Shown here: one piece after another, positions 6,349 to 50,322 of the stretch
Layout: each line of letters starts with the position of its first letter
Position numbering within the stretch: position 1 is the stretch's first letter
From: Lingula anatina
Taxonomy: Eukaryota > Animalia > Brachiopoda
DNA length: 64,000 nucleotides
Assembly (NCBI GenBank): GCA_051362555.1
Contig: CM120643.1
Span: forward strand, 1,488,001-1,552,000
Direction: 5' to 3'
The notes under the pieces: model-generated
Database searches by the model: none
Told to the model about the DNA's origin: nothing
The model's input: the letters and a program-made list of their open reading frames with translations, nothing else
Position numbers and translations under genes: made by a program

Positions 6349-7299
6349 GTGTGGCCTAACTGACAACGGACTCTTTAATTGGTTTTCATTCATGTGTCAT
6401 TCAAATCAAATTTTTTATATTGCAGTTTGAACTAGGATGGATTATTTATTTCCCACCCAAGTGGCAACTTGTCAAAACAACACTAAGATACTAAGATAGC
6501 ACAGCTAAATTCCATTAATTGTGTAGTATTTCTATTCACCATGCATATCTTCAACACGAAACACAATTTATGAAATAAATCATTAAGTACTGAATCAACT
6601 GTTCTTTAGTCTATTTCAAAGATTTTTTCTCATGATCTTGCCAATAATGTTAGTGATTATTTGAGATTACAGTGACTCATAAAGCAAAGAGACAATCAAG
6701 AGAAAACATATACTTGTATGGGAGATGCTATTCTAGCAAACGAAATATTTTATAATAATTATTCGGGATACAGAGCTTATTGCTCATAATGAAAGTTATT
6801 CTGTGTATCAAAACCAGGCAACTGACATAAGTAGTTGCTTTAATAAAGGAGGTATACGTATACGACATAGAACTTACGATACCGTAGTGATAATAAAATT
6901 ACAGAAAAAAATCAATTATTAAACACAAAGAGACTTTAAACCACCGATTCATTCATATGACAAAGTGAAGTATAAACTATTTTCACTTTGAAAATTTCAC
7001 TTTAGTTTTTGTATTTACAGACTATAATTGTCAAAACATTGGCATGGCTTGACAAGTATAAACAAGTATAAACAAAAAATACGTTATTTTGCAACGAGTT
7101 ATCATATTGTCACTTTTCACAGCTTTTAAACCCAGAAAATTATTCAAGAGCGAACATTATGCATATTTGCGCATAAAAAATGCATGTGACATAATAGTAT
7201 GTGATGTGTAAGGGCAATGCACTGTTATGTTAACCTAAAATAAAGATACTCACTTGACACAATCGGTTTTCAATGAAATAACAATTGAAAAAAGAAATC

Positions 7300-11940: not shown

Positions 11941-12164
11941 TGTTTTTGCTAACAAATGATCACGATGTAAGTCTGAACTGTTTTACTTCAAACACCATAA
12001 ATTTGTTTTATTGATTATCTTTATTTCAACAATAAATCTCAAAATTCAACATATGTTAATATGGGACATAGCTAAAGCTACCCTAGGTTCTAGATTCGGG
12101 TATTGCCAGCTCGATCTTGATTTCATATATAACCCATATCGCAATACCAGGCTCTAGTGCACAG

Positions 12165-15317: not shown

Positions 15318-15437
15318 TCACTCTGGATAGTACAGCCCTGGCCAGAAATACAAAGATTTCCTCAATGTTAGCGTCGATATACTTGATATCTGTCGGCAAC
15401 CATCTCGAGTTGGCATCTTGGAGACACTGTCGTTCAC
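15318..15437 (-). CDS. Exon 14: caspase p10 C-terminus and stop
   Basis: VNDSVSKMPTRDGCRQISSISTLTLRKSLYFWPGLYYPE* with the typical TLRK.LYF.P ending. Confidence 0.9.
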   Translation of the reverse strand: MNDSVSKMPTRDGCRQISSISTLTLRKSLYFWPGLYYPE

Positions 15438-18400
15438 CTTGTTGATAAACAATAACCAGTTGACATAGCAACATCAACCACTTTCTTTGAAATGTGTGAT
15501 TTTAAATTATATTTTGCTACTTTTCATAATTAACGTAATCGTCCAGTGTAAAGGGGGCTTAACTGAGATATTAGTTTACGCCCCCTGTGGGCGGCGTCCT
15601 ATCTGCGTTCCATAATACGGGCCCGATTGAGAGTAGAAAAATAATAATACCCAGTGTAAAGGAGGTTTAACTGCGCTGATCACATCAGTGCATTTATCTA
15701 TTCGGCTTTCGTGGGGCCGCAGAAGAACATGTATGTAAAACGTATGAAAAGATCCGTCTAATATTTGTAACTGGCGCATCCCAAAATAATCATCTGTCTC
15801 TATAATGTACGAAATCCTCCTATGCCGGTGTGACAGAAATGGTAGTCCTGGGAATGGAACTCCGGGCTCCCATACTGTTAGCACCAGTAAAGAATAGGGT
15901 TATTCGAAGTGTTGTGGAACGAAATTCACCGGTGCAAAGCAATGGAAAACGGACTACGGACGCAAGCGGACCACCGCTCCTGCCACACCTAGCTACTGGG
16001 AGTGATATTTGAGGGGACAACATTAACCATTTGTCTTTAGTTTTGTTTCAAAGAGAACTGTTGTAATACGTGATTACCTGTGTCAATATATCAAGTAAAT
16101 GGGTGTCACATGCTTTTTCCGAGAGCTCTTTAACCAGACACTGAATGAAAAACGTACCATGTTCAGTAGATCGCCAAGACTTGTCACCTGAATGGTAAGC
16201 AAACCTTACTTTAATGCCGGGTGTCAAACAAGCGTCACTTTGGTCAAAATGCAGCCAAGAAGACTATAACAGAAGAAATACTTTTCGGACGCCATCTAAT
16301 GATATTCACATCACACGTCCTTAATTTTTTTTCTACAAAAATGTGATGTATCAATAGAACAAAAAGTCACTAGAAACAAAAACACTCGACAATCTTACCT
16401 CTGGTCGTTGAAGTTACTAATATCATATCAGCTTTCTCTGGATTTGAGTGAGTTTCTTGCGGTCTCGGTGGCACTTGTTTTGTATTTAGCAACGGCGCAT
16501 TTTCATCCATACCTTGTGCAAAATTAAGAGATGTTTTTACATAGATAAAAGGCAGGACAAAGAAGTAATGAAGCAATTCCCAAATTATACTGACAAAAAT
16601 TTTTCACTTAATATTGTGCAAAAGAGAAAATTATTTACTGAAATATATAAACCACCGTTAGTATGACTGTTTAATAAAGCTCCATTTTATATTTTATATG
16701 ATAAAAATAAAAATATATAAAAACTCCCCCCCCCCCCCCAGATTTATAAAAGGTAGGATACAACATGTTTTACTATATCAATCATTATAACAATCACAAT
16801 ACGTTTAAACACAAACGCATAAAAGAAAGAATCAATAAAAACCTCATATCATACTTTACACACCAAATTCAAACTTGTCTGACATGAAGAACACAATAAT
16901 ACATCAACCTAGATGAATAGTACTTACTGCCCTGACACGCAGATATGAAGAACATCTTGGGTTTGCCGTTCAGTGTCGGGCACCTGGAAGCCTCAAAGTG
17001 TGCCAGAATTTGGTCATACCCTATGTGATTACCATCAGTGCCTATCACCGTGTTCTCTCCACCATGACTCAGGATCACCATGATGAAGGAAGAGTAAGCA
17101 CTGTGATCAGTGCTTGACTCACGTCTGGCTAGTTGGTCAATAGCCTAAATAGCATAATTTAAATATCTACATTTGATCATTTATGTTCATAAAACCGTTT
17201 TGTTTTATTGTATCATTAACTGACACCCCACTTCATATACCATAATGTGTGTTAATCTTCTTCAGATGTATGTCATTATCTGATAGTTTTAACTATGTAT
17301 TTTAAAAACATCGCCCAAGCAATCTAAGACATTTTGAGGCCAAACTGGAGAGTAATTGCAACAGTTTTTTTGCCACAGTGCTTTCCCAAATTGACAAACT
17401 AAACTCAGCAATGGTTGGCATTTCCTATATAGAAACGTCATAACGTAAAGACATGGTAAAAGTGAAAAAATAAATTTAATTGAGACATTCGTGGAATTTT
17501 GTTCTATACACATGTTTAAAAATGAATACAACTTTGAATTTATTGAATTTTATTTTTGGACACCCTCGCGTGTGAAATACATCTCTTTATATGTATTCGT
17601 ACTATAGCTAGTATACAAAATACGAAAATGCGGCAGGATAACTGACAGTTTAAGATATCAACGTACCTCAGCTGTCAGGTTGTCATGCTTCAACACCAAG
17701 TAATGTAACTGCCGAAATAAACTTTTCAAATGCTCAACATCCACCTCTGTGCCCTTCCTATCAAGGGAAAACTTATTGTCAAAGCTGACATTGTTGATGA
17801 TCACAGCTCTTCCCCTCCAATCTGTGTAGTTCTTGTAGACCTGTTGATTGCCAAAAAAATTTGGGAGCATTAACTGCAATTACAAAATTTTACTGGTGTA
17901 TCAAGGAGATAAGGTGTGAAACATTTAGAGGATGTTGTTATAAAACTGCAAATTTTCTAACAATAAATCTTTTATAAAGTTTGAATATAATATAATATAG
18001 ACTTATATATCAAAAATAAAATCTAATGAAGTGTAGCAACAAACCCGTTTAGCGTCATATGCCTTCTTCTCGAAGAGTTCAACTGTACAAGGCCAGACCT
18101 TAACTTTCTCCTCTCTGCTTGTGCCTAAAAGTGCAAAATGTCTCCCACGTCCCTAATTAATATCGATTTTATAGCGCATACTATGGTAAAATATTTGCCG
18201 GGAGCATCGCAATCCCAGTTAAATGGTTTCATTGTTCACTGTCTGCCAACCTTGGTCAAGATCATTGGGTCACTAGCTATGGCCTCCCGTATTTTTGTCC
18301 TGTTAATATGGTCTGGCCCCATTTGGTGCCCCCCCCCCCCCCCCCCCCCCCCGATGGTTCAAAGGCAGAATGCACCAGTTCCCATATTGCCCCCATGCGC

Positions 18401-21400
18401 ATGCGCAGTCCCTTGTTAAATTCGGTGTCCAGTAAATGAAACCATGTACAAGCGTGAGACCAAGACGAAAGTTGGCTTACTATATACTGTTGTCTATTTA
18501 TATTGGGATGCACGCGACAAGTACTTTTTTTTACGATTGCGACATGCGGCAGAACATAGCTTAGAGGTGACCCAAATTCTCAAACCGTTTTGTTACATGA
18601 TCACAAATTTTGAAAACGGTTAAGGGACTTTAAATAGAAGAACTTTAAAGAGTTTACTGTTACAAAAGTATAACAGAATGCACCGTGGTGTCAAAGAAAC
18701 CAGGCTCACAACTGTGTAATACAGCGTATGAGAACGACACTGTCTTGTCAGGTTTGTCAAAATTAACGTCAGGCTCTCTGATTAAATCTCAGCGGAGCGG
18801 TTTAATAGCTAGGCCCCTGCAAGACTGGCGCTTGTGGTCGGCGGGTACACCATTAGGGTATTAGCGGCATTGCTTTCAAGTGGGTCGGCCATATTTGACC
18901 CGCGGACCAATTAGTCTAAGATCGCATTCACAACGAATTGAGCCATGGCTTTACAAATTCTGGAACTTAATATGGCGGACGTACATGAAAGAACAGCCGC
19001 CTAATCTTTTAATGGTCTCTCCACCTATCACGCCTCCCCATGCGTCGTCCCTGCAGCGGTACAGTCATTAAATTTCGGCTACAATGGGACGACACATGGG
19101 GAGGCGAGTGAGAGGCGGAGAGACCATTAAAAGATGAGGCGGTTTTTCTTACCTGCCTCCAGACTTTGAGGACTGCGTGGTTCTTTCTCCACAGCTGAAA
19201 TGATTGAAATGCAAATTTATTATTGTTATCTTTTTTTATTTTTTTTTTTTTTTGACATTTTATAGCACAGTCTGAAATTCCAATACATTATGTCCATTTC
19301 CAACAAGAGAACTTGTTTTTTTTTTTCTAAATCACTTACTTGTAAACCAAACACGATATGGTTTCAGCTGAATCTCTTCGTCAGCTTTCTCTACGCATAC
19401 ACGGATGGCATCTGTTTTTAGAACGGTCTCTGCTTCTATCGGAATTTTGCGTCTCTTATCGTTTACCCTGATAAAGTAGCCAAAATGCATTCTGGGACAG
19501 TATGTCTCTTGAAGATAGGACAACTCGTCTTCCACTGTTTGTCGTGCGTTGAAGTATATGTTACGCTCAGCGTTATCTATCACTAGTTCAATGTCCTTTT
19601 CTGCAGTGAAGAGATGAAGCACAGATGCTTTGTCTTCCAGACGGAAGGAGGCGTGGTCAAAACCAATATCTGGGATGCCATTTACACAATGGTAAGGTTT
19701 ATACTTCCTAAGCAGACGGATGATCAAACGATGGAATAGCCCTGGAGGAAAGAAGCCGTGAGGGAATGAAATGAATAAAGATATTTCTCGAGCCTTCTCG
19801 GGGGGCCAATATTTCACCAGGTCATTGGATTTCAGCATGCAAGGCACGACGAATTTTCTCTTTCCAGAAGGCAGCATTGGATTTTGAACTGATTTAGATA
19901 TGTCCAACATCAGGTCAAAATGCTCCATAAGTTGAATCACTTCGTTTTTCATGTCGGTCATCTTTTCCTTCTGCAGATATACATCGAACACCTCCTCGTT
20001 CAGTTCTCCTTTTTCCAGACTTCGCTTCAAGTAATCGAGGCGATCCTTTCCACTTTTACTAACAGGCGGGGTCATGATGGCAGAAAACAGATCTGCTAAC
20101 CACTGTGGATCCAATATAACGATATTTTCCAGTCCATCCACTTTGAAGTGTAGGACGTCTCCCAGATGATGATGGTAAGGAATAAACATTTCATCTAACT
20201 CCGCGTCACGGATTCCAACTAAGCGCGCCATATCACGCAGTTCTTTAATATATATGATCGGCCTTTCTTCACTCTTCTTTGCCAAATCCAATTCCAACTG
20301 GAACCATCTCACTGGGTGCATTTGGCGGCCAGCTTCTCTGTCTCTGCTATAGCCACAAAGATGCTCGATCTCGCTTTTTATTTCATCAAACTCCTCAACG
20401 TCGGCCAAGTTACTTATGGCAAAACAACGGTAGACGTGTTCTGCGAGTTCCTGCTTGTCCTCCAGATAGTCCCTGAGTTGATCAAGTATCTCATCAGCGG
20501 CTTCCTATAAATAACACGGTATGGGGTTTAAAATGTTCAATTTCATATAAAATGTTAAGTTTGCCTTTGGAAAAAAAACATTATCCTTTACACTCACATT
20601 CAAGTACATTTCACTTAAAGGCATAATAACTCTTTGTATGTATATTTCACAATAAAAACATTGTGAGTAACTCATAGAAATATAATATATTCTGTTTTAC
20701 CACAAAAACAGCAGTTATAGCTATTATTCTGATATCTGAGCTTGTCTTTAGACCACGTGACCTCCATTGATGGCTATAGACTGTTAAAATCTCTTAAGAG
20801 ATTTTAACAAAAAAACAAACTTTTTAGAAAAAAAAACTGGGACTAATTTTTAATGTAAAAATGAATTCATTAATCATTGGTAAGAATGGGAAAATTGTTG
20901 TTTACTCCAGGAAAATTCATTTTTTGGCCGAAACGAAGAGTTATTATTGCTTTAAACAAGAGGGAGGAAAGGGGTCTGCTTGTGTGTGTGAGATAATAAA
21001 ATCCCAGAGAAGGAAGGAGCGAAAGACGCTTATCTCGACACCAAATCATGTCAACCAAAAACAGTCACCTTTTTCTGGTTCTGGGTACAAGTAGGTACTT
21101 AGTTTCTAGATTTCAGTATTGGCAACTCGATCACGATTTCTGTATAACCCTTATCAGAAATTCTGACTGTAGTCATACTAGGGGTGTGTTCGGCAACATT
21201 TTGCCTGGGGCGTTTCCATATTTGAAAGCCACATGTCTCGAACGTCACAGATCTGTCCCGCTTGGAGCTGCCTTTCCCGCCTTGAGCTGACGTCATCTCG
21301 TGCAGACGAGACAAAGACGAAAAGAGGCTGACCCGGAGATTGAATTTTGAAGTAAGAATACCTTGCAATCGAAAATCGATGCCACAACACAAGCCCCTTT

Positions 21401-30400: not shown

Positions 30401-33400
30401 GCTGTTGATATTGTTCGCGATTAATATTGAAGTATAACTCCTTCGCCTGCATGTAAACGTGTTACTTTTCCTCATGTTCTCTATATTTCTTTTAGGTGGT
30501 TGAGACAATGGGATGAGATCGATAAAAGTAAAGGTTAATCTAAACAATTAGATGCGATTTTTGTGAAATGACTTATTAAGTGATGTGCATGTACCTAGCA
30601 TGTTTAAATTCTTGAATTTCTGATTTGTTAAATCTTTAATACACGGCTTCATATATGTATTACTCTCAGGCCTTCGATATTATTGTGTTACACGGGACTA
30701 CTGGAAACCTGAAGCACAGGTCTACGGAGTCTTGTTATCCTTCATGCAGTTTTATGGCTGGGATGAACACTGCGAAGTAGAAACAGGCTTTACTTAGCTT
30801 TACTTGATGCACGACAGTTTAAACAAAACCAGTCTGCAAGGCTTGCTTTGATTTGGCGTTAACCTTACACTGGTTTTAAAAGAACAAATATAAATATGTT
30901 CGATGGATTAAATACCGGCTTCGTTATATTTAACTAAATGCGTCCATTTGCACAGTTACACAGGTAATATTTGTAAGTTGTCTGTCGTTCAGCACGCATT
31001 ATAGGCGAGTAGCTAAATAGTGACGGTGATCAATCCAAGCTCAATCTTGGCAAATATCGTTTACAAAATAGATCATGTTGAATAAACTTAATTACGCTTT
31101 AATAAATAATCAACACACGGTTCGGTTATTGTCACTTGAAAGCTTTCGATCAAAGACGTTCAATGAAATCACAAATCATTTGACGATTAAAAATGGACAT
31201 GTTCAAGGGACAGTTTTTGTTTCAGATAAAGGGACTTCAGGTTCAGGTAGAGGGTTCAGTTACGTGTTTCATCGGATGATAGCATCACGCCCTAGGTCTA
31301 AGCGAGTTGAATAGAAGCTTTTTATCCAAACATCCTATTCCTAACTACTGAGTTAGGACAAAGGTCTAGTAACATGTACATGTACTGTGCAATTACTATT
31401 TATGGATCAGATGCATACCTGATTGTTTTTCCTCTGGTGTCGCACGTATGCATCCTTTCTTGAGTGATCTAAAACAAGTCGCTAGTGTACCATGTTTCTC
31501 ACTACATAGCAAAATATGTTCGACATGGTGTTTCTGAACGGCAGCCGGAGACACAGTAATTGTATAGGCATGCTTTAAGCTTGTTCGAGAGATAATAACA
31601 GTCGGGTTTAACAATAGATAGCGAGCTATAGTAAGACCCCCTCCTCTTTAACTGATGATTTTCACTTTTAATTGACCGTACTTTCGTATATTGTATGATC
31701 ATACAGCCAGACTTCCCCCTGTTGCACGTTGTAGTTGGATTGTCATTGCGCCTATGTCAATGCACCTCATTTAATTTCAATATTATAATAAAAGCATAAT
31801 ATAAGTAATATGTTATTTCCTTATTCCTCTTTCATTATCATTCATGTTTTATAAATACTTGAAAGCTTGAATGCAGATATTTCAAATTAAAACGTAAGTA
31901 CATAAATAAATTATACATTTATAAATTAATGCAATAGGAATTTTTTGAGACAGATTGATGCTGACGCTCATGCATTTCAACCAAACAAACAATAATTAGT
32001 TCAATTTTTGACTGCGGAAATTTTATATAGGATGAAATAACTGATAACAAATTTAACTAGCAGTTTGTTAGCAACACTAAAAACCAGCTGCGCGTGCCAA
32101 ACTAGTGAACAAAAGGACAGTTCGCTTCGCGTGGCACGCCTTAGCATGGGTTTAGCCTCTTCAAGCTATAATCCTATCGCTGCATCAAACAATAGGGACC
32201 TTCTGGCTGATGTATCCTGCTGTTAATTACACCTAGTTACAGCGGATTGTCACGCTCGCGCTGGGCCACAGAAACCGGCGTCATGGGGTTCACTCGTATT
32301 AAGTATTGTGTTATTCCACCTAAGCTATTGTGTTTGTGCGTTCGAATTTTGAAGGGATTTATACGGCCCTCCATTGTTTGTCCGCCCCCTTCTATTCACA
32401 AGATAGGGATTAAAATATTTCGAACGTTGTTACACCGGTGTACAACGGAAACAAAATTATTCCGACCACTGTACCCCATGAATATGTATGAATAGTGAAC
32501 AAGCTCTGATACTTAGGGCAAATACAAGGTGTACACTCCAAAAGTCTAAATGACTCGCAATGTCTCGTAATATGAAGAGTGCAGTGGTACGGATGGGACG
32601 TATGGTATAAAACGAATCGAACAATTGAATAAAAAACAGATTTATTACCTCTGAAGCCAATTTGTCCTTATGAGTTCCAATAATCAAAACGTGTGGGATG
32701 ACGCTCTTGTTTTCTTTTGATTTTCTAACTGTGTGCATATGGATAGAGTTCAACCAATACACTATGAACTCTGAAAAATGTAAAAGAAACATTAAGGTAA
32801 AGAAGACTGTTTATCACAATTTCCCCAACAAAAATAACACGGCCAGTTCTGTTGATTATTAACAGAAGGCGCAAACAGAGGAACGGTCGGCGTTTCCAAT
32901 TCAAATTAAAGGATAGTTGCACTTGCATTAGTGCTTACAGATAAAACATCTAACATGGTCTTTCACAGTTACCTAAAAAAAGGCATCTAAATGTAATCTT
33001 CATCATACCTTTCACGGTCTTCTCTCCTCTGTATACCGGTATTTTGGTATCGAGGTCTACGTCAAGCCTGAACACCAACAAGTAGATGTTCTGCTCTGAG
33101 AGGAAAGTCTGGTGAGTGGTGTAGTAAACATCTTGACCACCAAAATCCCAAATTGTAATCTGTTTCTCAGGATCCACAGGTTCTCCACGAGCACCTGACT
33201 CTATTTTTTGCACAAGGTCCGGATGGAAATTCTTGAAACTGGCTGTCTCTGCTATAAATACGATTAATTTGGAAGGGTCTTATGAACGTGGTTTACGGTA
33301 TATTTAAGTTAGGTAACATTGGGAGAATTCACATCGAGAGGAACCGAGGTCTAGTAAGATCGCTACCTAATATGGCGGACCTACATGAAAGGGAAACCGC

Positions 33401-36400
33401 TTAATTCGTTAATGGTCTCTCTATCTCTCACACGCCTCTCCGCGCGTCGTCCCTGAAGGGGCTCACTAATTAAATCTCGGCTCAATTCAACCTGTCGAGG
33501 GACGATGCGTGGGGGAACCGAGGGTGAGAGGCGGGGAGACCATTACAGGATTAAGTGGTTTTCCTAACATGTAGGTCCGCCATATTTAGGTAGCGGCCTT
33601 ATTAGACCTTGACTCATCTCGATGTGAATGCTCCCATTGATTGCTGAAAGAGTGGTGACAATGAAATTGCTACTTCATTGGCCGTAACATATTCCGCACT
33701 GTCTTATACCAAAGAATACTGTTTCATACATTCCCCAGATATTACGATATTAAGTGGACTCTTACGAAATGGATGGACCACAGTCGTGAAAAAGGTGTGC
33801 ATTTTTTTTTTTTTTGGAAAGTAAAGAAATATAATTTATTGTTTCTGTTCTATTAAAAAACCGTAAGTGAGGAACATGTACCTGTTTCTGACTCCCGAGT
33901 GTTGCTATAAATAACCTTCTCCACCTTTCGGGATTCCACTGGTGGCTTTTCGTCCACTTGGTCTACCCGGCGGAATGCGTCTGGTTTCTGTATTCCAATT
34001 ACCATGTGTTGCACCAGGTGATCTTCTGGGTCATCTGAGGATTGTGAAAAGAACATTCATATTGACATGATATTTTCTAACCCAAGATGCATCAGGTTAT
34101 GGAGCTGTGTGACTTATAGGGGCCATAGGGCCTAGAGCCTGGTTTGAAAAATATACAAGACGAAGGTTTACAAAAATATGAAGAATCTTGGAAAATGAAA
34201 CTGTCACGATCGCAGGTGTCTGAATATTGACAAGAAACCCACAAAGCTTTTGAACGAGCACTTTTTCAGCAAAGTTGTTGATAGCCATACATGAATATGC
34301 ACTGATGGTACCCCCCTCGTCTTCCAGCCCAATGTGGTGGGAAAATCTTAACCACTTTAGAGCTTATGGAAAAGTACAGCGCCCCTAATTTTGCTCCATT
34401 CTGTTCTTTCCTTCCCAAATACACTAGTGTCAAATATGTTTTCTAAGTCTCATTACCTTTCCCTCTGACCCAACTAGATCGGCCGTCTTTATGGACGATG
34501 CACCTATGGCGGTATATCTTCACACCAGGTGTATATGCGTCTGTTTCTTCGTCATATTCCTCTTGAAGGAGGCGCTTGACGAGATGAGTCTTCCCCACAC
34601 CGTAGGGACCAACAATAGCTACTCGCTGTCTGTAAACTGGGACTGCACCACTGGCACATAAGCGGTCAAACTTTGCTCTAAAATCTGGTAATAAACAGAA
34701 CAGGTGTAACGTGACAAAGAGTCCCCCATATCAGAGAGTCCGCTTCCCATTCATTTGAACAGGTGAGCTTTTTCCTAGATTTTGATCCACTATGATCAGA
34801 CTAAACCTTAATGTTATAACTATATGGAGTGCGGACTTTGTGTTACACGGACTGGACCCTCAGTTTCAATATACCGGTAATTTATGACACTGCTACAGGC
34901 AACAGCACGTAGTAACTTTTCGACATGATTAACAGACGTTACGTGCGATCTAGCTACGTCTTAGCCGGATGCAAGGTACATAAAAACCGTGCGCCCAAAA
35001 CGTAGTTGGGACCTAGGCTTTACGACCAACCGTGGTTAGAGTGTCCGCCTCCGGAGCAGGAGGACGCGGGTTCAAGCCCGTCCGGGGCCATACCAGCCCT
35101 TTATAAACGATACCTGCGGTCTCCCCGCTTGGCAATCAGCACTAAGGGGTTGAAGCAGGGACCTGGTCTGGCAGTGCAGAAATGAAATATTAGCTCTGAG
35201 CGCCTTTTCATAGTTAGTCGCACTGGTTGTCGGTACACAAAAATGGCCTTCGTATGTCAACGATCGCAGGCGACCTGTTAGCAGCCTTATGCGACCACTT
35301 TTAAACCTAAAGGCTGGGTCACACTGCGCTTGCAACCTTTTGGCAACCTCTTTGCAACCTCAGCCGCAAGGAGGTTGCCCTAGGTTTTAAAGTGGTCGCA
35401 TTAGGTTGCAAACAGGTCGCCTGCGATCGTTGACACACGAAGGCCATTTTTTTGGCACCGACAACCAGTGCGACTGATAATGAAAACGATTGGTAACTGA
35501 GAGGTTGCCTATAGGTCTCCTCTTGGTTGCCAGTAGGTCGCTGTAACCAGACTAAAACCAGTCGCATACCACCTGTAACTGCACGGTCGATTGACGGTCT
35601 TTAGTCGCTTAGTTGCAAACAGGTTACTAACCGGTTGCAAGCGGTGGGCAGCAGGTCGCAAGGAGGTTGCAGTTGAAACTTCATGGTCGATTAACGGTCT
35701 TTAGTCGCTTGGTCTCTAACAGGTTTCTTACAGCTCGCATGCACTCGAAAACATGTCGCGAGAAGGTCGCAAGCAACCGTGATAAAATAAGCGTAGGATG
35801 GTGGCCACTAAATATATAAATATATTTTTCATTTATATCATGCCATTAAGGCTTTCTAAATACCTTGACAAAAATCGTTATTTCTCAATTAAAACGTAGA
35901 TTGTATTTGTTGTCATCCTTTTAAATTTATTTACAAGGTTTTCATAAGTATTTTTTTTCAATAAAATAAATAAATGTATGAGTCCCTATCAGCCACCATA
36001 CTTGACTAAAAGTGTTGTAAATAGAAGCCGCTGAGCCCGTGTCTTCAGTCCCCAGTATGTCATCCAACAGCGTGGGAAGGGTGGCCAGAATGTATTTTGA
36101 GAAAGCAAATGCCCGTGAAGAAAGTTCTTCACAAAGTTCCAACAGACTCTGCTTCCCACGAAGAGGATCAACCGAAAGATGATGAACGCGGAGGAGACAG
36201 GGAGCCTAAATTTACTATTAAAGAGGAAGAAGAATTAGTTGATTTTTTTTAAGGAAAACGAGTTTTTCTATAACCAACAATTGAAAGACTTTAAAAACAA
36301 ATCAAATAAAGTGCCAAAACAATCAATAATGATTATCACAATGTAAACGATAAACTGTTATCTTTTTATCCATTCCTATATCATGGCTAATTTTTGACAA

Positions 36401-39400
36401 CTATTGTTGTCAAATCTACTGGAAACATTTTTAATGACTAAAGCAGCCGGAAATATCTTACTTTTTAATTTGCCAAGTCATAATTTGCCAAGTCACAATG
36501 GAAGAAAAATTAAGCAAATAGGCGGGCGCAGAGAAAAAAAGTAAATAGCAAAGTTTGATTCATACTTTTTACAATAAATTTAATTGTCAGGCATTTTTAT
36601 AACAGTAAAACAGTGTCACCAATATAAAGAAGGTCAAATAAATACAAATTAACTTCCTCCCAGTACTTAGAATTCGTACCACAAGGACGGAAACAAATTG
36701 ATGACGCGCAGGATCCTTCACTATTTAAAGATGTTGTATTGTAAGTGTAACGCTTGGGGCTACAAAGACAAAGGGAAAACCACACAATCGGTCGCAAATC
36801 AGTTGCTAAGCAGTCGGCGACCTTTTAGCAACCGGTTGGATACCACAAATAGGCTTTTCGGTCGCCAGGAGGTTTTCGGTGCTGCACCGAAAACCGGCGC
36901 GACCGGATAGTAACCCAGCGTTCATTTGGAGACCACTTTGCGAGTTGTTGCAACTTGTCGCCCACCTTTCTGCAACCGGTGACAGTTGCAAGTCGCAAGG
37001 AGGTTTTATGTTCAGTGTGACCGTAACTGCACAGGCCTTGCGACCTCAAAGATACCAAGTATTGAAAAAAGAAACTATGCATGCCTATTATTACATTAAT
37101 AAGGCTGAAAAAACATCCAAATATGTGTTTTATTACACCACTGGTTTGATATAAATGCCAATATATAGTACAAATATATTTCTTATTTATTATTGTAAGT
37201 TTGACAATATTGGTAGTACAGAAATCGACTGTGACGTTATAACAGAATCTCATAGCAGAATCATACTTTAATATTCAAAATATTAAATCATTTGAAGCTG
37301 CTACAGAACGGATCCAATCGTTGTATAATGTTTAAAATATTCCCTCTGTTGTCATCCGAGAGGGAAATTTACGAGAAGGCAGCTATCGTCACAACTTATA
37401 AAATATATATAGTCTGTGCAACCTTGCTGCTACCAGTTGGCAAGCGATCGCTACAGTCCTGCAACCGGTTTTCAGTCTCCAAGTGGTTGCTGACAGGTTG
37501 TTTATCGCTCGCCTAACGGTGTGCGACTGGTAACCTCTGACTTGAAGATTGTCTGTAAGAGGTTGCAGATACCATACTGTAACCTTGTTGCAACCGGTTA
37601 GCAACTGCTTGCCGATCAAAATATGCAAATTAGGTCGCAAAGTGATCGCAAGCGACCACCAGATTTTGTGGTTGCAAAGAGGTTGCCAAAAGGTTGCAAG
37701 CGCAGTGTGACCCAGCCTTAAGGCAGCCTCCTTGCGACTAAGGTTGCAAAGAGGTTGCCAAAAGGTTGCAAGCGCAGTGTGACGGGGGCTTTAGATCTAC
37801 TGTCCCACCAGGACATCCCAGCTGTAGGACATATATTGCTGTCGAACATAATTTTCATTCACATTTACACAGGACGACAGGGACGGGTATCAAAATGAGT
37901 TAATTGAAGTATCAATAGCTATATGCTGTAATTATACAATTAATATTGCAATCTGTTTATTTCACTGTATTTCAGGCCTGCAGGCCAAGAGTACATCAAT
38001 TGAGTTCTATTTATAATACTGAGCTGACTACACAGGGATATATATCATAAATGACACTAATTACTTATCTAAAAGAACATCTCTTAATTTCTCTGCAGAT
38101 AAACAGATTGCAAGGGATATATATCATAAATGACACTAATTACTTATCTAAAAGAACATCTCTTAATTTCTCTGCAGATAAACAGATTGCAATATATTGC
38201 TGTAATTATACAGGTTGAAAAGGGGCGTGTAAAATAATGTAACTTGGAGTTTAGCATCCAATCGTAGACTCAACGACTATCTGAGGTAGCTTATCAATTC
38301 AGTCATGAGCTCCAAATTTTGTTGACATACAGGGTTACTACTTAATATGGAATATTTTTTATCATTGTTATTTTTGAGTGCTGATTAAATATTCTTTGGC
38401 TTGATTCATCAAAAAAAGTATGTCACTGAGTGATAAAAACATCCAGTCTTCTGTTGTGAGATATTTTGGTCAATAATATCACATCTGACATAAGATGCCA
38501 TTCAAAAGAAAGGAACACCCCCAGAAAACCATGTCATCAGCTTGATGTCAATATTAACTTTAAGTTAAGATATTAAAGAAAGTGATATGTTACACAGTCA
38601 AAGAACTCACTACAGTTAATCATGAAAAGTCAGTAATTACGGGTATGACCTCCAGCAGCCGCTTGCAGCGCCCTCATCCTACATGGCATACCCTGTGCCA
38701 CGTTTTTTAGAGTTTGGATGGGGATATAATTCCACGCAGTGATATTTGCCTGTCGCAGTTCATCACTATTTACCGACCGATGACCATAGCTATTAAATCT
38801 GTGAGTTACTTTTGCCCAAAGTTTTTCAATTGGATTCAAATCGGGAGAGTTTGCAGGCCAGGGCAGTTGCTGAACCCATTGGTTTTGAAGAAAAATAGTG
38901 ATTTTGCGAGCTCGATGTGGTTGCGCAGTCGTCTTGGTATACAAATTTGTTCCTGAAGATGACTCTTACCAATCGAAGCATTGTTTTCTGTAGAATGTCT
39001 CTGTAAGAATCCTGGTTAAGGTTGCCTCCTAGAAAAAACAACTGGTCCTGGGCACCGACATGATATGCTCCCCAAACAGAGACGTTACCACCCCCCGCTT
39101 CCATCCTAGGCAGTGCACAATCATCGTTTTATGCCTCTCGTACACTTCGGCAGACACGGAATCTACCGTCCATATCTGGCCTCATCACCAAACCCATGCG
39201 TTTTTATACAAGGGCAGAAATTGCCAAAAAGACCACCCCTCACATTTCTGACCACAGAACATGCAACTGAATGCATTAATTGTTTCGTGAGTTGTGCAGT
39301 AATTAGGTAACACACTTGGCTACACATGGAGTGACACCTCAGTTTTGGATTTTTAAAAAAAAGTAAGAGAAAAAATAAATATTTTGTAGAAAATTTACTT

Positions 39401-41886
39401 GGTAAAAAATAATATTCCCAATTAAGTAGTAACTCTGTACATAATTGTCAGTCGTGGTAGCCCTGCAAATCACTAAATTACCATGTCGATTGACACATGC
39501 AAGTGTTTTATATATACATTGTAATTTACATGTATGAGCACACATGGGTGAATAAATTACACCACTGTTGGCAAGTTAACACAACGCACCGGCAGAGCAA
39601 AGAAAACCAGTAAAAATCACTTGGAACCTAGACTTCTATTCCTGTCACACCGGCAGTGAACTCCCCTCTGTGCAATCAAGGAAAACCAAAAACCCAAAAA
39701 AGAAATTTCTCACCCCTGTCCCAGTAAATGCCTTGGATGTTGTTGTATTTATTCCTGCAGCAACCTGTCGACATAAAAATAATTTTGTTCACCCAATAAC
39801 GTAGTGCACTCCATTCACATGTGATATTACCACACGTTGCAATATTATGGCTGACATCCATCCCCTTCCCCTCACACCGGGTCTTTTTACCAAAAATTTA
39901 TTTCTGGATTTCAAGAGATTTCTTATAATATGTTGCTGCTTCTGCGTACTTACCCCAGCCTTCAATGCTATTTTTGTTCATCCTATCCAATACTTCTTGT
40001 GCAGTTTTTTGCTTGAGTTGAGCTGATGATAATTTCAGTATGAGTGGATTTCCCCCACACTTCTCTGCTATTTCACCTAGGGCTATTGATTCACTGACAG
40101 TGGGACTGGCGGTTTTTCCTTCCCAAAGGATATCAATGGAGGGTGCCTTACCAAGGGGAGATACGATTATGACAGTCGTGGTATGCGACCTGAGGCTGAA
40201 TGATTCACGGCTGGTACACAACAAAGTAATATGCTTTGATGAATTTAAAATATTCTGAAGCAAGCTGTGAAAGTCCTGCCATTTTGACTTAATAACCTCA
40301 TCGTTGTTATCAAAAATGATAACAGTGTCTGAAGTTAAACTAGACAAAGTTTGTATGAGTATATTTTGATAATCACTGTATAAATCTATCAGGGGTCGTG
40401 TTGGGTGGTAGTGCTGGGCTAGAGATAACTTGATAGTTTCAAGGTCGGTGATTTGTCTCATATCAATGTACAGTGCATTTTCCTCGCGATGTCCGACCTC
40501 GATAGCCACCGATGTCTTACCAATGCCCCCCATCCCCGTTAGAAGAACAAGTCGGGTTTCACCTGCAATATACTGCTGTATTAGTTGTACCAATTCTTCG
40601 CGGCCTTTAAGGTCAGGAAGTTTTCTTGGTAGATGTACAGAGAAGAGCTGGCATGGGGCAACTGGAAATATTAAATGAATGCCATAAACACAATCATAAC
40701 AAACATGCTACAATTCACATAACTATTTATAGTTGATAGAAAATTACACAATAAAAAGATGTCAATAAAAACTAAAAACGAACCGAAGGAGCATAGATAG
40801 CCAATGCAGCTCACCTCTCAATTTGTAATTAAAACTAACCAATTAATAAACAAAAAGTTCACAAGCAATTTAGTTACTTGGTCCACTGCCAACAGTTTGT
40901 CAAAAGTTCATCAAAAGCAGTCCACAATGTGCATGATGTTGCTAACAGACAGACAGACAAACGAAAAAAAAAATGACGCACTTGGTGGCGAACATGTAAA
41001 GCAAACTAAATTATGTTGTTCTACCTAGAGCTTCAAAATATCACAAACGCTTACATTTCTTTCTAAGAAATATCTTCACGGCGGACCAACAAAAATGCAC
41101 TACAGTGTATAAACACTATGTGCTCACTAAAGCATAATATTAAGAAAAGGGGTAAAAGAAAATTAGGTAAAATACAATTTTTCAAATTGCAAACCAATAT
41201 TATTACGTGTGTATACGCTGATGTTGACCATTATAAATCAATTACCTTTGACTCTTATATTTTATTGTTACTCGCCAAACGCTGTTTTACAAAGCTCGAT
41301 TACCTTTAGCATCCAGGGGCACAATAAGAAGCTTGTCGTAATCATCACTGGTATATATTGGGGACAGTGACAGCAGGACTTGCTTGAGAGCATTAAACTC
41401 TGCCTGAAATGCTGTGTCAGTGATGCCAAGACGCTGTCCATGTGAGTGCTGATTGCGGTAGGTCTTCACTCTCCCAATGTTGGCCTCTATGGAGGTGTCG
41501 GAAGCTGGTGGGTTTTCCCATTTAGCATGAGGGTTCAGATTGGTGATGTTTCTTAATAAAACAACTGCAAGTGTAATATCTAAGTCCTGTGTTGTCACAG
41601 TTGTTGAAGGGGTGCCAGAGGGGTACAGGAGTTTCATTTGACTCGAGTTTCTTACCTTTCTATTTTTCAATAGCAGTAAGGTATGTTTGACTTGTAGATT
41701 GTCAAGTACGTCAAAAAGTTTGTCAGTTTTACTGGGATCAAACAGTCCCGGATAAGCTGCTTTTAGCTGAGTCCTGAGAACATCTCGAAGCACGTCCGTT
41801 GCATGCCCTAAGAGCAGGTGCATGCGGAAATAATTTTCTTTTTCATTCCGTGGTATTTCAAATGGAAATATCTGTGCTGTTGCCAT
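15318..41886 (-). CDS. Predicted 14-exon gene: HEPN(DZIP3-like)-NB-ARC-Roc-COR-caspase fusion protein, ~1352 aa (1116 aa if the NB-ARC exon is skipped)
   Basis: Manual splice model join(41886-41304,40661-39954,34684-34457,34034-33882,33251-33009,32770-32649,20504-19340,19194-19153,18124-18045,17840-17667,17144-16928,16512-16399,16187-16078,15437-15318). All introns are GT-AG, all phases are compatible, there is no internal stop, and it ends in TGA. The Roc-COR-caspase part is better supported than its link to the HEPN/NB-ARC exons. Confidence 0.7.
16078..16187 (-). CDS. Exon 13: caspase p10
   Basis: GDKSWRSTEHGTFFIQCLVKELSEKACDTHLLDILTQ (SWR...G.xFI motif). Phase 1-0. Confidence 0.9.
16399..16512 (-). 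CDS. Exon 12: inter-subunit linker and p10 start
   Basis: SMDENAPLL...PEKADMILVTSTTRG matches the P..AD.L...ST..G motif. The acceptor (aAG) is less certain. Phase 1-1. Confidence 0.8.
16928..17144 (-). CDS. Exon 11: caspase catalytic His/Cys exon
   Basis: VILSHG...CPTLNGKPKMFFISACQG. Phase 0-1, donor A|GTAAGT. Confidence 0.93.
17667..17840 (-). CDS. Exon 10: caspase p20 N-part
   Basis: VYKNYTDWRGRAVIINNVSF...DRKGTEVDVEHLKSLFRQLHY...DNLTAE. Phase 0-0. Confidence 0.9.
18045..18124 (-). CDS. Exon 9: segment preceding the caspase large subunit
   Basis: GTSREEKVKVWPCTVELFEKKAYDAKR resembles the caspase-2 segment VKPCTPEFY that precedes the catalytic domain. Phase 1-0. Confidence 0.7.
18968..19150. 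mobile_element. Partial palindromic MITE (same family as 33317-33639 and ~48060-48165)
   Basis: AATATGGCGGAC.TACATGAAAG... arm plus the internal inverted repeat TAATGGTCTCT / AGAGACCATTA. Confidence 0.7.
19153..19194 (-). CDS. Exon 8: 42-nt linker micro-exon
   Basis: tttcAG|...|GTAAGA; TVEKEPRSPQSLEA, phase 1-1. Supported only by splice signals and phase. Confidence 0.55.
19340..20504 (-). CDS. Exon 7: Roc end (FAISN) plus COR domain
   Basis: Extends ORF 19332..20408 upstream to a phase-0 acceptor. COR motifs PVRWFQLE, YHHHLGDVLHF, ILDPQWLADLF, VVPCML, FFPPGLFHRLI. Donor ACAA|GTAAGT, phase 1. Confidence 0.9.
24135..24346. mobile_element. Tourist/PIF-Harbinger-like MITE
   Basis: TIR CCCCTTTACACT.GACGGCGTCCTTTCTGC and its inverse; TTA on both sides. 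Related ends at 15541 and 15651. Confidence 0.75.
24350..26757 (+). mobile_element. 2408-bp non-autonomous PIF/Harbinger-like DNA transposon, copy A
   Basis: ~49-bp TIR AGGCTGGGTCACACTGCGCTTGCAACC...; TTA target duplication; many subterminal GGTCGC/GGTTGC motifs; no transposase motif seen. Confidence 0.88.
32649..32770 (-). CDS. Exon 6: Roc G4 region
   Basis: EFIVYWLNSIH...PHVLIIGTHKD. Acceptor ttttcAG, donor GAG|GTAAT, phase 1-0. Confidence 0.9.
33009..33251 (-). CDS. Exon 5: Roc G3 region
   Basis: ITIWDFGGQDVYYTTHQTFLSEQNIYLLVFRL is a hallmark Roc motif. 243 nt, phase 1-1. Confidence 0.9.
33317..33639. mobile_element. ~320-bp fold-back MITE in intron 4
   Basis: Arms CA.TGGGAG.ATTCACATCGAG...AATATGGCGGACCTACATG and their inverse CATGTAGGTCCGCCATATT...CTCGATGTGAATGCTCCCATTG. 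Confidence 0.8.
33882..34034 (-). CDS. Exon 4: Roc insertion between G2 and G3
   Basis: DDPEDHLVQHMVIG...RESET. Acceptor cctcAG, donor ACAG|GTACAT. 153 nt, phase 1-1. Confidence 0.7.
34457..34684 (-). CDS. Exon 3: Roc GTPase N-terminus (G1, G2)
   Basis: Not in the ORF track. Translates DFRAKFDRLCASGAVPVYRQRVAIVGPYGVGKTHLVKRLLQEEYDEETDAYTPGVKI...; P-loop GPYGVGKT and G2 TPGV. 228 nt, phase 1-1, AG/GT borders. Confidence 0.85.
34702..34892. mobile_element. Short MITE-like repeat, second copy at ~53290-53468
   Basis: Shared GTGTAACGTGA...AGAGAGTCCGCTTCC...GCGGACT..TACACGGA. Confidence 0.6.
35028..35172 (+). mobile_element. tRNA-derived SINE (5' part)
   Basis: A-box-like TGGTTAGAGTG and B-box GGTTCAAGCC, followed by a core CATACCA...TCAGCACTAAGGG resembling invertebrate SINE cores. 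No complete cloverleaf. Confidence 0.65.
35203..37790 (+). mobile_element. Older diverged 3'-end remnant of the same family, split by copy B
   Basis: 35203-35310 and 37722-37790 join into a mismatched version of 26580-26757. Confidence 0.8.
35311..37718 (-). mobile_element. 2408-bp non-autonomous PIF/Harbinger-like DNA transposon, copy B (inverted relative to A)
   Basis: Same length and TIRs as copy A, TAA target duplication. The internal ORF translations are identical to copy A at mirrored coordinates (sum 62068). Confidence 0.88.
38034..38191. repeat. Exact 79-bp tandem duplication
   Basis: AGGGATATATATCATAAATG...AAACAGATTGCA twice, head to tail. Confidence 0.9.
38330..39437 (-). mobile_element. 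Tc1-like element, internally deleted and frameshifted
   Basis: TIR CAG(G/A)GTTACTACTTAAT at both ends with flanking TA. Transposase motifs GGGNVSVWG, YQDDCA, WPANSPDLNPIEKLW, GGHTR. Confidence 0.9.
39870..39953 (-). pseudogene. TPR-like remnant downstream of the NB-ARC exon
   Basis: In-frame read-through GKYAEAATYYKKSLEIQK*IFGKK resembles a kinesin-light-chain-type TPR interrupted by TAA. Confidence 0.6.
39954..40661 (-). CDS. Exon 2: NB-ARC / AP-ATPase-like STAND NTPase
   Basis: LKGREE, Walker A GMGGIGKT, Walker B VIIFDNND, sensor LLCTSR, and AEKCGGNPL (GxP). Acceptor tttccAG (40662-40663), consensus donor TGGG|GTAAGT. 708 nt, phase 1-1. Confidence 0.85.
41304..41886 (-). CDS. Exon 1: DZIP3/hRUL138-like HEPN domain
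   Basis: ORF MATAQ...PLDAK with ENYFRM, QMKLLYP, DLDITLAVVLLRN and YRNQHSH (Rx4H), typical of animal DZIP3-type HEPN. Acceptor ttttcacAG lies 10 nt before the ATG; donor AAAG|GTAATC is phase 1. Confidence 0.85.
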
Positions 41887-42721
41887 GGTCCTTCTCCTGT
41901 GAAAATGAGGAAAATATGGAATCCAAGTATTTTATTAATAGTTTTAACATTTTAAACATTCCCCAAACTTAAAACCCAAAACAACTGTAACTTATCTATT
42001 TACCTTTGAGTTTCTTGATATACAGACATTGAATCAGAGTAATCAAAGTTGTAATGCCTGGTCTACTTATAATGTGATTAATGAGCATAAAACCGCTGTA
42101 CCATGGAATATTGTATTGTTGGTCTTTTTGTGGAATTTGATGTTAATAAAATGATGCCAGGTGCATATCATTCCACAGTCATTAAGCTCCCCCAAAGTAT
42201 TGGTTCAGTATGGGTGACATTTCTATTGTCCATTGTGTGTATGTACACTAATCATTAAAAAATTGATATAAATATGTAATAGTGAAAATAGCAATTTTAT
42301 TGATACTATAAAATACACCGTGTAAGGTATTGTTGAAATAAAACATGATTAAAACTATTGAGGCGTGAAAGGTTTTACTCGCAGAACTAATTATTGTCAG
42401 ATTTTACAGGAATGAAACAGGTTACATGCTTCTAAATAGAACTTTTGTTCATCACGACATGTACGTCTATCTAGAGCTTGTGTAATGAAACATTTTTTAT
42501 ATATGTAATGCTAACTTTTTACGGATAGATTATGACCAGTTAAATCGGTTTGGTTTGTGACGCTCGCTAACTGCATGATTTACGAGAAGTCACCAACTTC
42601 GGAAGCTTTCCCTAACTTGCATCAGTCTTCTTAGCTCTCCCAACCGTTTTCCCTCAATCTGATCTCTTGGATATTACTTCTGAACGTCTTTTTTTCCCCA
42701 AATTTCTTACCTTATGTGGAT

Positions 42722-42872
42722 TCAATGTACCCTCTACCAGGGCCACAGTTATTATTGTGGACATTTTTGGCTGAAGCGACATCAGACCAAAATGACTGTC
42801 TATTTATCTAGATACATATCTGTGAATATCTGTTGAAAATCATTCTGTCGCCCTGGTAGAGGGTAGATTCAA
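42722..42872. mobile_element. MITE, with relatives at ~58915-59050 and ~62887-63012
   Basis: TIR TACCCTCTACCAGGG / CCCTGGTAGAGGGTA; shared core GACTGTCTATTTATCTAGA. Confidence 0.7.
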
Positions 42873-43279
42873 TGCTGCACTAATGTACGTTGCGGCACGG
42901 TACAATTTTTATTACTCAAATTGCACACGTCCACTTGCAATAATTACACGTAAGGTCATGCAACGAGTCGAGTGCACAAGCAAGCGACGCCATTAAAATT
43001 AATTACGAAGTCTGGAGGTTAACAGTGTCCAATCCTGAAGTGAAACAGGATGTCGACGACAGTAACATTATATTTCTTATCTAACATAAAATGCCTTATG
43101 CTCACCTTCACCTCATTGAACCTTTATTTACACTCATGATTTCATTATAATTTGTGTTGTTTACATTTAATATAAAAAACGATAATTTTCCCATACTTAC
43201 CAACGGTTAATGAATCCGTTCCGACATTCAAAGTTAGTCTCTATTATCTTTAATTTTTTAAGAAACCTCTGAAATATCT

Positions 43280-49200: not shown

Positions 49201-50322
49201 TACTGAAAGCCAGCTATTTTGCACGAAGACCCGTTGGGAAACCACTGTTAACAGCAGGTCATATACAGCGAGGTCTGCAATAGGCTGGGGACACGTCGTT
49301 TTCGGTGATAAGACGAGATATGGAGTTGACGGTCGAATCCGTGTCCGCCGACGTGTACGAGAGGCACAAAACGATGATTTTGTATTGCCTAGGTAGCACG
49401 AAAATTCATGCGTTAGCACTCCTATTGACGATTCTGATATGTACTGTCTGAATTTTCGTGCTATGCCTAGGGTGCAAGCAGGGGGTGGTAACGGGGGTGG
49501 TAACGTCTCTGTTTGTGGAACATTTCATGCAGGTGCCCAGAACCAGTTGTTTTTTTCTAGGAGGTAACCTCAGCCAGGGTTCCTACAGAGACATTCTACC
49601 GCAAACAATGTTTTGATTTGTAAGAGTCATCTTCAGGAACAACTTTGTGTATCAAGACGACTGCGCAACCCCACATCGAGGTCGCAGAATCACCGTTTTT
49701 CTTCGAAACCAATGGGTTCAGCAACTGCCCTGGCCTGCAAACTCCCCAGGTATGAACCCAATTGAAAATCTGTGGGGGGAAGTAACTCAGAGAATTAAAA
49801 GCTATGGTCATCGACCGGTAAATATTGATGAACTGCGAAAGGCAAATATCACTGCGTGGAATGATATCTCCATCCAAACTCTAAAAAAACTTGCCATTGG
49901 GTATGCCATGTAGGATGAGGGCGCTGCAAGCGGCTACTGGAGGTCATACCAGCTATTGATGACTTTTCATGATTTACTGTAATGACTGTGTAACATATCA
50001 CTGTCCGGAGGCTATCATTTTCTTTAATATCTTAGCTTAAAATTAATACTGACACCAAACTTTTGATATGGTTTTTGGGGGTGTTCTTTTCTTTGGAATG
50101 ACATCTTATGTCAGATTTGATATTATTGACCAAAGTATCTCACAAAAGAAGACTGGATATTTTTATCACTCAGTGACATACTTTTTTGATGAATCAAGCC
50201 AAAAAGATTTTTATCGGCACTCAAAAATAACAATGATAAAAATATTCCGTATTAAGTAGTAACCCTGTACATGTCAGAAATTTTCTAATAGCATTTATAA
50301 CAAAACCATTTTTATTTTGAAA

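What the first reader, a model, noticed from the sequence alone, without database searches (positions are those of the whole stretch)
39870..40661. Fossil of a gene fusion: NB-ARC exon runs into a dead TPR that supplies the splice donor
The NB-ARC stops soon after the GxP helical domain, with no evident winged helix, and continues in frame as WGKYAEAATYYKKSLEIQK*IFGKK, a TPR-like repeat with a stop. The Gly-Lys-Tyr codons (GGT AAG TAC) contain a perfect GTAAGT donor in phase 1, matching the Roc exon acceptor. Inference: an ancestral HEPN-NB-ARC-TPR receptor lost its middle and most of its TPR sensor, and was spliced onto a Roco-caspase through a cryptic donor.
Basis: partly seen in the sequence, partly recalled or inferred. 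Interest (0 to 1): 0.75.

Follow-up and report, generated by a model that had tools for sequence, protein, structure and literature searches.

The report
Receptor relic inside fused immune gene
In a Lingula-like brachiopod genome, a broken piece of an immune-receptor gene sits between the RNase-type first exon and the GTPase-caspase exons of a likely immune gene, which likely records how that gene was built by fusion; whether the piece is spliced into the message is untested.

Summary
The NB-ARC frame breaks off at about 39961 and runs into half a TPR (family HMM E 1.3e-11), then TAA. Intact Lingula HEPN-NB-ARC-TPR paralogues (76-80% identical) show that at least 212-220 residues are missing. 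GTAAGT at 39953 is in phase with the Roc acceptor (34684) and would give an open 1,337-aa HEPN-NB-ARC-Roc-COR-caspase.

The interpretation needs a correction. A near-identical RefSeq gene (LOC106162424, 731/748 residues, both isoforms) joins HEPN directly to Roc with no NB-ARC. So the stable fused unit is the HEPN exon, and the relic is a phase-1/phase-1 segment that can be skipped (1,101 aa). The donor is likely inherited from the repeat's Gly-Lys codons rather than newly evolved (chance about 0.13 given GKY).

The NB-ARC has drifted 2.5-4 times more than in intact paralogues, yet keeps an open frame and its motifs, which leans towards partial inclusion. RNA-seq (6 runs) was too shallow and mostly from paralogues to decide.

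Verdict: a real fusion fossil in a family that shuffles domains readily; optional cassette 0.5, dead intronic relic 0.3. New variant of a known kind.

The parts
41304..41886 (-). HEPN_DZIP3 coding exon (ATG at 41886, phase-1 donor), RxxxxH motif RNQHSH present; derived from the HEPN-NB-ARC-TPR receptor clade
   Evidence: Pfam E 1e-32; 192/194 identical to P0015 and 94% to receptor P0005; nested among receptor HEPNs, AU p 0.022 against receptors-only monophyly
40662..41303 (-). 642-nt GT-AG intron at the same position as in intact receptors
   Evidence: joint 41304-40661 in 3 reads of run X7 that carry paralogue residues
39961..40661 (-). Truncated NB-ARC: Walker A (GMGGIGKTS), Walker B region (IIFDNND), TSR and GGNP motifs as in paralogues; breaks off after ...NKNSIE. 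Motif names are recalled.
39960..39964 (-). Deletion junction NB-ARC | TPR; at least 212-220 aa of the receptor missing
   Evidence: (computed for 3 of 5 close paralogues before the script stopped)
39877..39960 (-). Half-TPR stub (HMM positions 16-40 of a 42-aa unit) with in-frame TAA at 39900-39898; homology ends near 39877
   Evidence: iE 1.3e-11; best single repeat 19/26 identical
39948..39953 (-). Latent phase-1 donor GTAAGT inside the Gly-Lys-Tyr codons; use not shown
   Evidence: RNA inconclusive
39748..39753 (-). AATAAA/ATTAAA-type hexamer 147 nt after the stop; possible poly(A) signal for a 448-aa read-through product
   Evidence: the only such hexamer in 39900-38300
34457..34684 (-). 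Roc exon 1 (phase-1 acceptor; P-loop GPYGVGKT); plug-in point where a relative carries NHL repeats instead of HEPN
32649..34034 (-). Roc exons 2-4 (34034-33882; 33248 or 33251-33009, a NAGNAG acceptor that matches the RefSeq X1/X2 difference; 32770-32649)
19340..20504 (-). COR exon; 300/305 identical to P0015 in its first 305 aa, 29 differing alignment columns in its last 83 aa (switch near 19580)
15318..19194 (-). Two linker exons and five caspase exons (19194-19153, 18082-18045, 17840-17667, 17144-16928, 16512-16399, 16187-16078, 15437-15318); SHG and ACQG catalytic motifs present (motif roles recalled)

Best explanation
A truncated, internally deleted copy of a HEPN-NB-ARC-TPR receptor gene lies upstream of the exons of a Roc-COR-caspase, and the two likely form one fused gene in which the HEPN exon is the stable new front end and the broken NB-ARC-TPR piece is likely an optional in-frame cassette. 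Shown: the receptor origin of the HEPN and NB-ARC exons, the deletion, the TPR stub, and two open reading frames of 1,101 aa (cassette skipped) and 1,337 aa (cassette included through GTAAGT at 39953). Shown in a RefSeq model of a near-identical gene: HEPN spliced directly to Roc. Inferred: a partial duplication placed the receptor's 5' part and promoter upstream of the Roco exons. Because the HEPN donor, NB-ARC acceptor, latent TPR donor and Roc acceptor are all phase 1, both routes are in frame. Partial inclusion would keep the frame open while the crippled NB-ARC, which has lost its sensor and probably its winged helix, drifts as a spacer. The main product is predicted to be a Roc-COR GTPase switch carrying an RNase-type effector at one end and a caspase at the other, probably acting in innate immunity or cell death.
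For: Paralogues and breakpoint. TPR HMM. All 13 modelled introns are GT-AG and both models are open. P0015 matches the skip model at 731/748 residues, and it and isoform P0021 read PLDAK-DFRAK. HEPN is nested in the receptor clade. The NB-ARC end branch is 0.21 against 0.052-0.085 for five intact paralogues, while HEPN is not accelerated. The frame is open over 236 codons although simulated neutral drift of 25-40 amino-acid changes keeps it open in only 0.3-20% of runs, depending on the assumed indel rate. Nucleotide-binding motifs are unchanged. The donor is the top GT site in the 6.6-kb interval. Four breaks in three RefSeq receptor models (P0006, P0008 twice, P0012) fall right after the TPR Met that normally precedes Gly-Lys, the same donor position.
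Against: No read joint or loose end at 39953 or 34684 was listed in 6 runs, and almost no reads lay on 39955-40216; depth was low and most reads were 90-95% alike, so this does not decide it. No database protein carries this NB-ARC (closest 80%) or NB-ARC plus Roc (0 of 140 Roc-bearing proteins among 166 held). Acceleration against distant outgroups is significant in only 1 of 10 relative-rate tests (more changes in the window in 9 of 10). If fewer changes were neutral, the open frame means little. P0015 differs at the 3' end (no caspase), so it may be a paralogue, and I could not see whether its intron holds the relic. The RefSeq breaks are automatic gene models and could be prediction rescues, not real splicing.
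Confidence: 0.5

Rival explanations
1. Same fusion history, but the NB-ARC-TPR piece is a dead relic in intron 1 that is always skipped; the GTAAGT is an inherited coincidence.
For: Both RefSeq isoforms skip it. Long branch, 33 private changes against 12-19 in intact paralogues, 10 of them at 101 deeply conserved columns against 2-5, and mean BLOSUM -0.39. P(GTAAGT given GKY) is 0.13. No own-gene reads were evident.
Against: The frame stays open with P 0.003-0.2 under simulated neutrality. Changes still avoid conserved columns somewhat (10/101 against 23/131, p 0.13). Acceptor, donor and nucleotide-binding motifs are intact.
Confidence: 0.3
2. One reading: the cryptic donor is the main route and the gene makes a 1,337-aa HEPN-NB-ARC-Roc-COR-caspase; the RefSeq gene is a later derivative that lost the segment.
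For: Open frame, intact ancestral acceptor, top-scoring donor and phase match.
Against: The sister gene skips it; no such protein was found; protein-level drift.
Confidence: 0.1
3. The segment is an alternative last exon: transcripts read to the TAA and are polyadenylated near 39753, giving a 448-aa HEPN-NB-ARC without a sensor.
For: The read-through frame is open and a poly(A)-type hexamer lies at 39753. Truncated transcripts are common for 3'-truncated duplicates (PMC6169893, section 6).
Against: No such protein at near or longer lengths. X5 shows about one read's depth over 39562-39823, across the hexamer (may be unspliced or foreign). The downstream Roco-caspase is intact and needs the HEPN exon as its start.
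Confidence: 0.07
4. Assembly chimera, or two unrelated neighbouring genes.
For: The locus is repeat-rich, with two identical 2,416-bp inverted copies, and no genome was available for a check.
Against: An independent RefSeq model has the same HEPN joined to the same Roc-COR.
Confidence: 0.03

Closest known systems
Lingula anatina LOC106162424 (XP_013395172/3), HEPN-Roc-COR
   Same: 731/748 identical over HEPN, Roc and most of COR; same exon junctions including the NAGNAG
   Different: No NB-ARC in either isoform; diverges from about window 19580 on and ends without a caspase
Lingula HEPN_DZIP3-NB-ARC-TPR receptors (LOC106180851, LOC106161121, LOC106175059 and others)
   Same: HEPN 86-94% and NB-ARC 76-81% identical, same intron, same 42-aa TPR unit
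   Different: The window copy lacks at least 212-220 middle residues and all but half a repeat of a TPR array of about 500 aa
Invertebrate Roco proteins with swapped effector domains (P0016 Roc-COR-caspase; P0029 Bcl-2-Roc-COR-caspase; P0017/P0018 Roc-COR-HEPN; P0033 HEPN-Roc-COR; P0056 NHL-Roc exon 1)
   Same: Roc-COR core with modules added at either end
   Different: None of the 166 proteins held has the order HEPN-Roc-COR-caspase (one older model, P0023, has partial caspase-Roc-COR-HEPN), and none combines this NB-ARC with Roc
3'-truncated segmental duplicates forming fusion transcripts (NOTCH2NL-NBPF, SRGAP2B/C, ARHGAP11B; PMC6169893 sections 6 and 8)
   Same: The 5' part of a gene is duplicated with its promoter, splices to downstream exons, and may use cryptic donors
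   Different: Those fusions rarely keep an ORF (<2% for NBPF), and ARHGAP11B's donor arose by mutation. Here both routes are in frame and the donor appears inherited.
Brown-algal ROCO and NB-ARC-TPR exon shuffling (PMC3341825, PMC11378527; abstracts only)
   Same: The same two candidate immune families are under rapid birth, death and shuffling
   Different: There single repeats are shuffled within each family; here a receptor's effector exon crossed from one family to the other

Membership tests
STAND NB-ARC-TPR receptor (intact) | NB-ARC nucleotide-binding domain with Walker A/B | tested here: met
   Pfam E 8.4e-8 above cut-off; motifs as in paralogues
STAND NB-ARC-TPR receptor (intact) | Complete module after the GxP domain (winged helix, HPLL/MHD-type motif) | tested here: not met
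   The stretch with HPLL (P0003 aa 509) is deleted. That this stretch is a winged helix is only weakly supported: HTH_69 E 0.059 and DnaD_N E 0.001, AfsR match over profile 378-518; the fold prediction did not finish.
STAND NB-ARC-TPR receptor (intact) | C-terminal TPR sensor array | tested here: not met
   Half of one repeat, with a stop
Roco protein | Roc GTPase followed by COR | tested here: met
   Pfam Roc E 1e-7 and COR-A E 9.5e-22; open spliced model with GPYGVGKT, WDFGG, THKD
Roco protein | GTP binding and hydrolysis, dimerisation | not testable with these tools
   needs biochemistry
HEPN_DZIP3 RNase | Rx4-6H motif (PMC9646362, passages) | tested here: met
   RNQHSH in the HEPN exon; activity untested
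Caspase (C14) | Domain with His-Gly and Cys motifs | tested here: met
   Three exons hit Peptidase_C14; LSHGG and ISACQG in the model; motif roles recalled
Chimeric gene from a partial duplicate | Parts trace to two different parent families | tested here: met
   HEPN and NB-ARC from the receptor clade; Roc-COR-caspase from the Roco family, where a relative has NHL before the same exon
Chimeric gene from a partial duplicate | One transcript joins the parts | tested here: inconclusive
   RefSeq model of the sister gene joins HEPN to Roc; own RNA test too shallow
Cassette exon using a cryptic donor | Junction reads at the donor | tested here: inconclusive
   None listed (3-read threshold) in runs with near-zero own-gene depth

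The most novel reading that the evidence does not exclude
The relic is a live cassette, so one locus switches by splicing between HEPN-Roc-COR-caspase and a 1,337-aa form with a sensor-less STAND ATPase and a Roc GTPase in one chain. The G|GTAAG sites built into TPR Gly-Lys codons act as ready-made phase-1 sockets through which broken receptors are rejoined to new domains, and this locus is caught between fusion and loss of the linking exon.
Probability: 0.25. Interest if true: 0.7.

Novelty: new variant of a known kind. Interest (0 to 1): 0.45.

Why it matters
Domain shuffling in invertebrate immune genes is usually inferred from finished architectures. Here the intermediate is still in the DNA: the donor gene family, the deletion point, the leftover exon and a sister gene model without it. 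This gives a concrete, RT-PCR-testable route by which an effector exon moves from an NLR-like receptor to a Roco GTPase. It also suggests that latent donors in repeat codons may rescue broken receptors in frame. The predicted HEPN-Roc-COR-caspase would put two effectors on one GTPase switch. The process class (partial duplication, then fusion) is known, and use of the donor is unproven, which caps the interest.

Tried and rejected
Genome and context: no whole genome was held. A metagenome scan for the NB-ARC found no relative among 78 pattern matches. So no paralogue DNA was available, and no dN/dS or breakpoint microhomology could be computed.

RNA: no RNA holder was listed in the index. Six of nine offered raw-read runs were laid: X1, X4, X5, X7 on 39300-43200 and X5, X7, X8, X9 on 32400-35000. 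Only 6-30% of each run was read. The loose-end tables were crowded by repeat reads (107 and 58 rows hidden). The NB-ARC and TPR reads of X7 carried paralogue residues. An X5 loose end at 34640 translates like the NHL-Roc relative.

Second TPR: a second degenerate repeat after 39877 was suggested by extended tblastn hits but is not supported by the family HMM; rejected.

Frameshift in the caspase linker: suspected at first; resolved by a 38-nt exon at 18082-18045.

Strong neutral decay of the NB-ARC: first suggested by private-change counts, then weakened by outgroup tests (1 of 10 significant).

Structure: the AlphaFold job for P0003 never finished, and the deleted stretch was not compared on its own with solved structures, so the winged-helix label stays weak.

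Earlier scan notes: none found.
Full report
Setting. The window is eukaryotic. Its proteins match Lingula anatina RefSeq models most closely: 12 of 14 hits and 5 of 6. The species assignment is inferred from that similarity, since no genome was held. One minus-strand gene spans about 41.9-15.3 kb, with HEPN_DZIP3, NB-ARC, Roc, COR-A and caspase Pfam matches in that order.

The observation. The NB-ARC frame ends ...DRMNKNSIE-GWGKYAEAATYYKKSLEIQK, then TAA at 39900-39898 and IFGKK. Five paralogues at 76-80% identity are TPR receptors, four with HEPN; P0002 is a partial model without its N-terminus. They align up to 39964-39961, after which the window matches their TPR units. For 3 of the 5 (the script stopped at the fourth) the least possible loss is 212-220 residues, including the HPLL motif. 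An HMM from 34 of their TPR units hits 39954-39880 at iE 1.3e-11, with only one other hit in the window (E 4.7); the best single unit is 19/26 identical. So half of one repeat survives. That the lost stretch holds a winged helix is only weakly supported, and the fold job did not finish.

The donor. GTAAGT at 39953 is the only such hexamer in 41303-34687. It ranks first of 413 GT sites under a crude matrix from the gene's 12 other donors: 6.1, against 1.8-8.3 for the real donors. It is phase 1, like the Roc1 acceptor at 34684. In shuffled intron DNA such a site would be rare (0.007), but Gly-Lys-Tyr supplies both site and phase. 22 of 34 TPR units have GKY, and this gene's codon usage gives P = 0.13. 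In 3 of 12 RefSeq receptor models (P0006, P0008 twice, P0012) the sequence breaks right after the Met that precedes this Gly; in P0008 it runs from there into a second copy of the NB-ARC exon start. This suggests a GT is inherited at that position across the family. These are automatic models, so they do not prove splicing.

Two open routes. With all 13 introns GT-AG, including the segment gives 4,013 nt before the last base of the stop (1,337 aa) and skipping it gives 3,305 nt (1,101 aa), both without internal stops. Reading through to the TAA gives 448 aa, with a poly(A)-type hexamer at 39753.

LOC106162424 matches the skip model at 731/748 residues, with HEPN at 192/194. Both of its isoforms read PLDAK-DFRAK, HEPN directly into Roc, and differ only by a NAGNAG residue. 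Searches with the window's NB-ARC at 139-443 and 444-2000 aa found nothing closer than 80% and nothing with Roc. Among 166 proteins held, 140 match a Roc-COR profile, 15 match the Lingula NB-ARC profile, and none match both. A Pfam scan of 26 of them, 20 with Roc, found no NB-ARC or NACHT beside Roc. I could not see whether the RefSeq locus still has the relic in its intron. That gene also diverges from about 19580 on and lacks the caspase, so it may be a recombinant allele or a young paralogue.

Origin. The HEPN exon nests among receptor HEPNs, next to P0005 (AU p 0.022 against receptors-only monophyly). It keeps the receptor's intron position, seen in 3 reads of run X7 that carry paralogue residues. 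Relatives use the same Roc1 start behind other modules, such as NHL repeats in P0056, and the same HEPN exon occurs as a C-terminal module in P0027. The likeliest history (inferred) is that a truncated, internally deleted receptor copy came to lie upstream of a Roco gene and gave it a first exon. The order of deletion, truncation and fusion is not resolved.

Is the relic alive? Against: its end branch is 0.21 versus 0.052-0.085 in intact paralogues. It has 33 private changes versus 12-19, 10 of them at 101 deeply conserved columns versus 2-5. Acceleration is significant in 3 of 4 tests using a close third paralogue, but in only 1 of 10 using distant outgroups, and in 0 of 8 for HEPN. For: the frame is open over 236 codons, which neutral simulation retains in 20%, 7% and 1.4% of runs for 25 changes, and in 9%, 1.8% and 0.3% for 40 changes, at assumed indel ratios of 0, 0.05 and 0.1. 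The nucleotide-binding motifs and both splice sites are intact. Drift in the protein with a preserved frame is what an included but function-poor cassette would show, hence 0.5 for an optional cassette and 0.3 for a dead relic.

RNA. Six runs were laid, with 6-30% of each read. Most reads were 90-95% alike and only partly fitting. No joint or loose end was listed at 39953 or 34684, at a threshold of 3 reads and with many rows hidden. Depth over 39955-40216 was zero in X1 and X4, at most 0.18 in X7 and at most 1.5 in X5. This is inconclusive.

Literature. Eight searches listed no paper describing this locus or a HEPN-Roc-COR-caspase. The library lacks most subscription papers, and I opened no supplements. 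PMC9646362 (passages): HEPN_DZIP3-NACHT expansions and haplotype variation in pearl oyster, and the Rx4-6H motif. PMC8195603 (passages): variable effector domains, including HEPN, in marine invertebrate immune proteins. PMC9334734 (passages): Roco-TIR proteins in Aplysia. PMC3341825 and PMC11378527 (abstracts and outlines): ROCO and NB-ARC-TPR shuffling in brown algae. PMC6169893 (abstract, sections 6 and 8): fusion transcripts and cryptic donors in 3'-truncated human duplicates. PMC13121700 (term search of the main text): no mention of HEPN, NB-ARC, TPR or caspase; its supplements could bear on annotation. The immune role of the gene is inferred from these family associations.

Verdict. This is a real fossil of a receptor-to-Roco fusion, with the donor present but its use unproven and not required for the fusion. 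New variant of a known kind; interest 0.45.

Noticed in passing
window 35308-37723 and 24345-26760: Two 100% identical 2,416-bp copies of a DNA transposon-like element (about 48-50-bp terminal inverted repeats, TAA/TTA-like flanks; PIF/Harbinger-like from recall) lie in opposite orientation in the introns on either side of the four Roc exons. Such a pair could pair in the pre-mRNA (exon skipping or back-splicing) or invert the Roc exons; it could also be an assembly collapse.
   Followed up: partly
window 19580-15318: The COR exon switches from 300/305 identity to P0015 to 29 differing columns in its last 83 aa, then leads to caspase exons that P0015 lacks. This looks like a second recombination that swapped the C-terminal effector.
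   Followed up: partly
window 38323-39442 and 49493-50276: Decayed Tc1/mariner-like element (DDE_3 E 1.1e-6, below cut-off) just downstream of the TPR stub, with an 87% identical inverted partial copy upstream of the gene.
   Followed up: partly
window 41886-41304 versus 40661-39961: HEPN is 94% identical to P0005 but the adjacent NB-ARC only 76%. Either the NB-ARC drifted or the HEPN exon was converted separately; a sister relation of the NB-ARC to P0005 is not rejected (AU p 0.086).
   Followed up: partly
window 40521 and P0008: The Walker A Gly-Lys codons also form GGTAAG, and RefSeq model P0008 breaks at exactly that point (GMGGI then VAHEK) in its second NB-ARC copy.
   Followed up: no
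window about 43200 and 41896: Candidate 5' UTR exon donor near 43200 and an acceptor 10 nt before the HEPN ATG; not tested.
   Followed up: no
window 7296-9563 and 9681-11950; 38034-38192: A 2.3-kb tandem duplication (92% identical) downstream of the gene and an exact 80-bp tandem duplication in intron DNA.
   Followed up: no
P0029, P0078, P0042: Unnamed relatives with unusual Roco architectures: Bcl-2-Roc-COR-caspase, Roc-COR-GT4 conflict glycosyltransferase, DED-OTU-Roc-COR.
   Followed up: no
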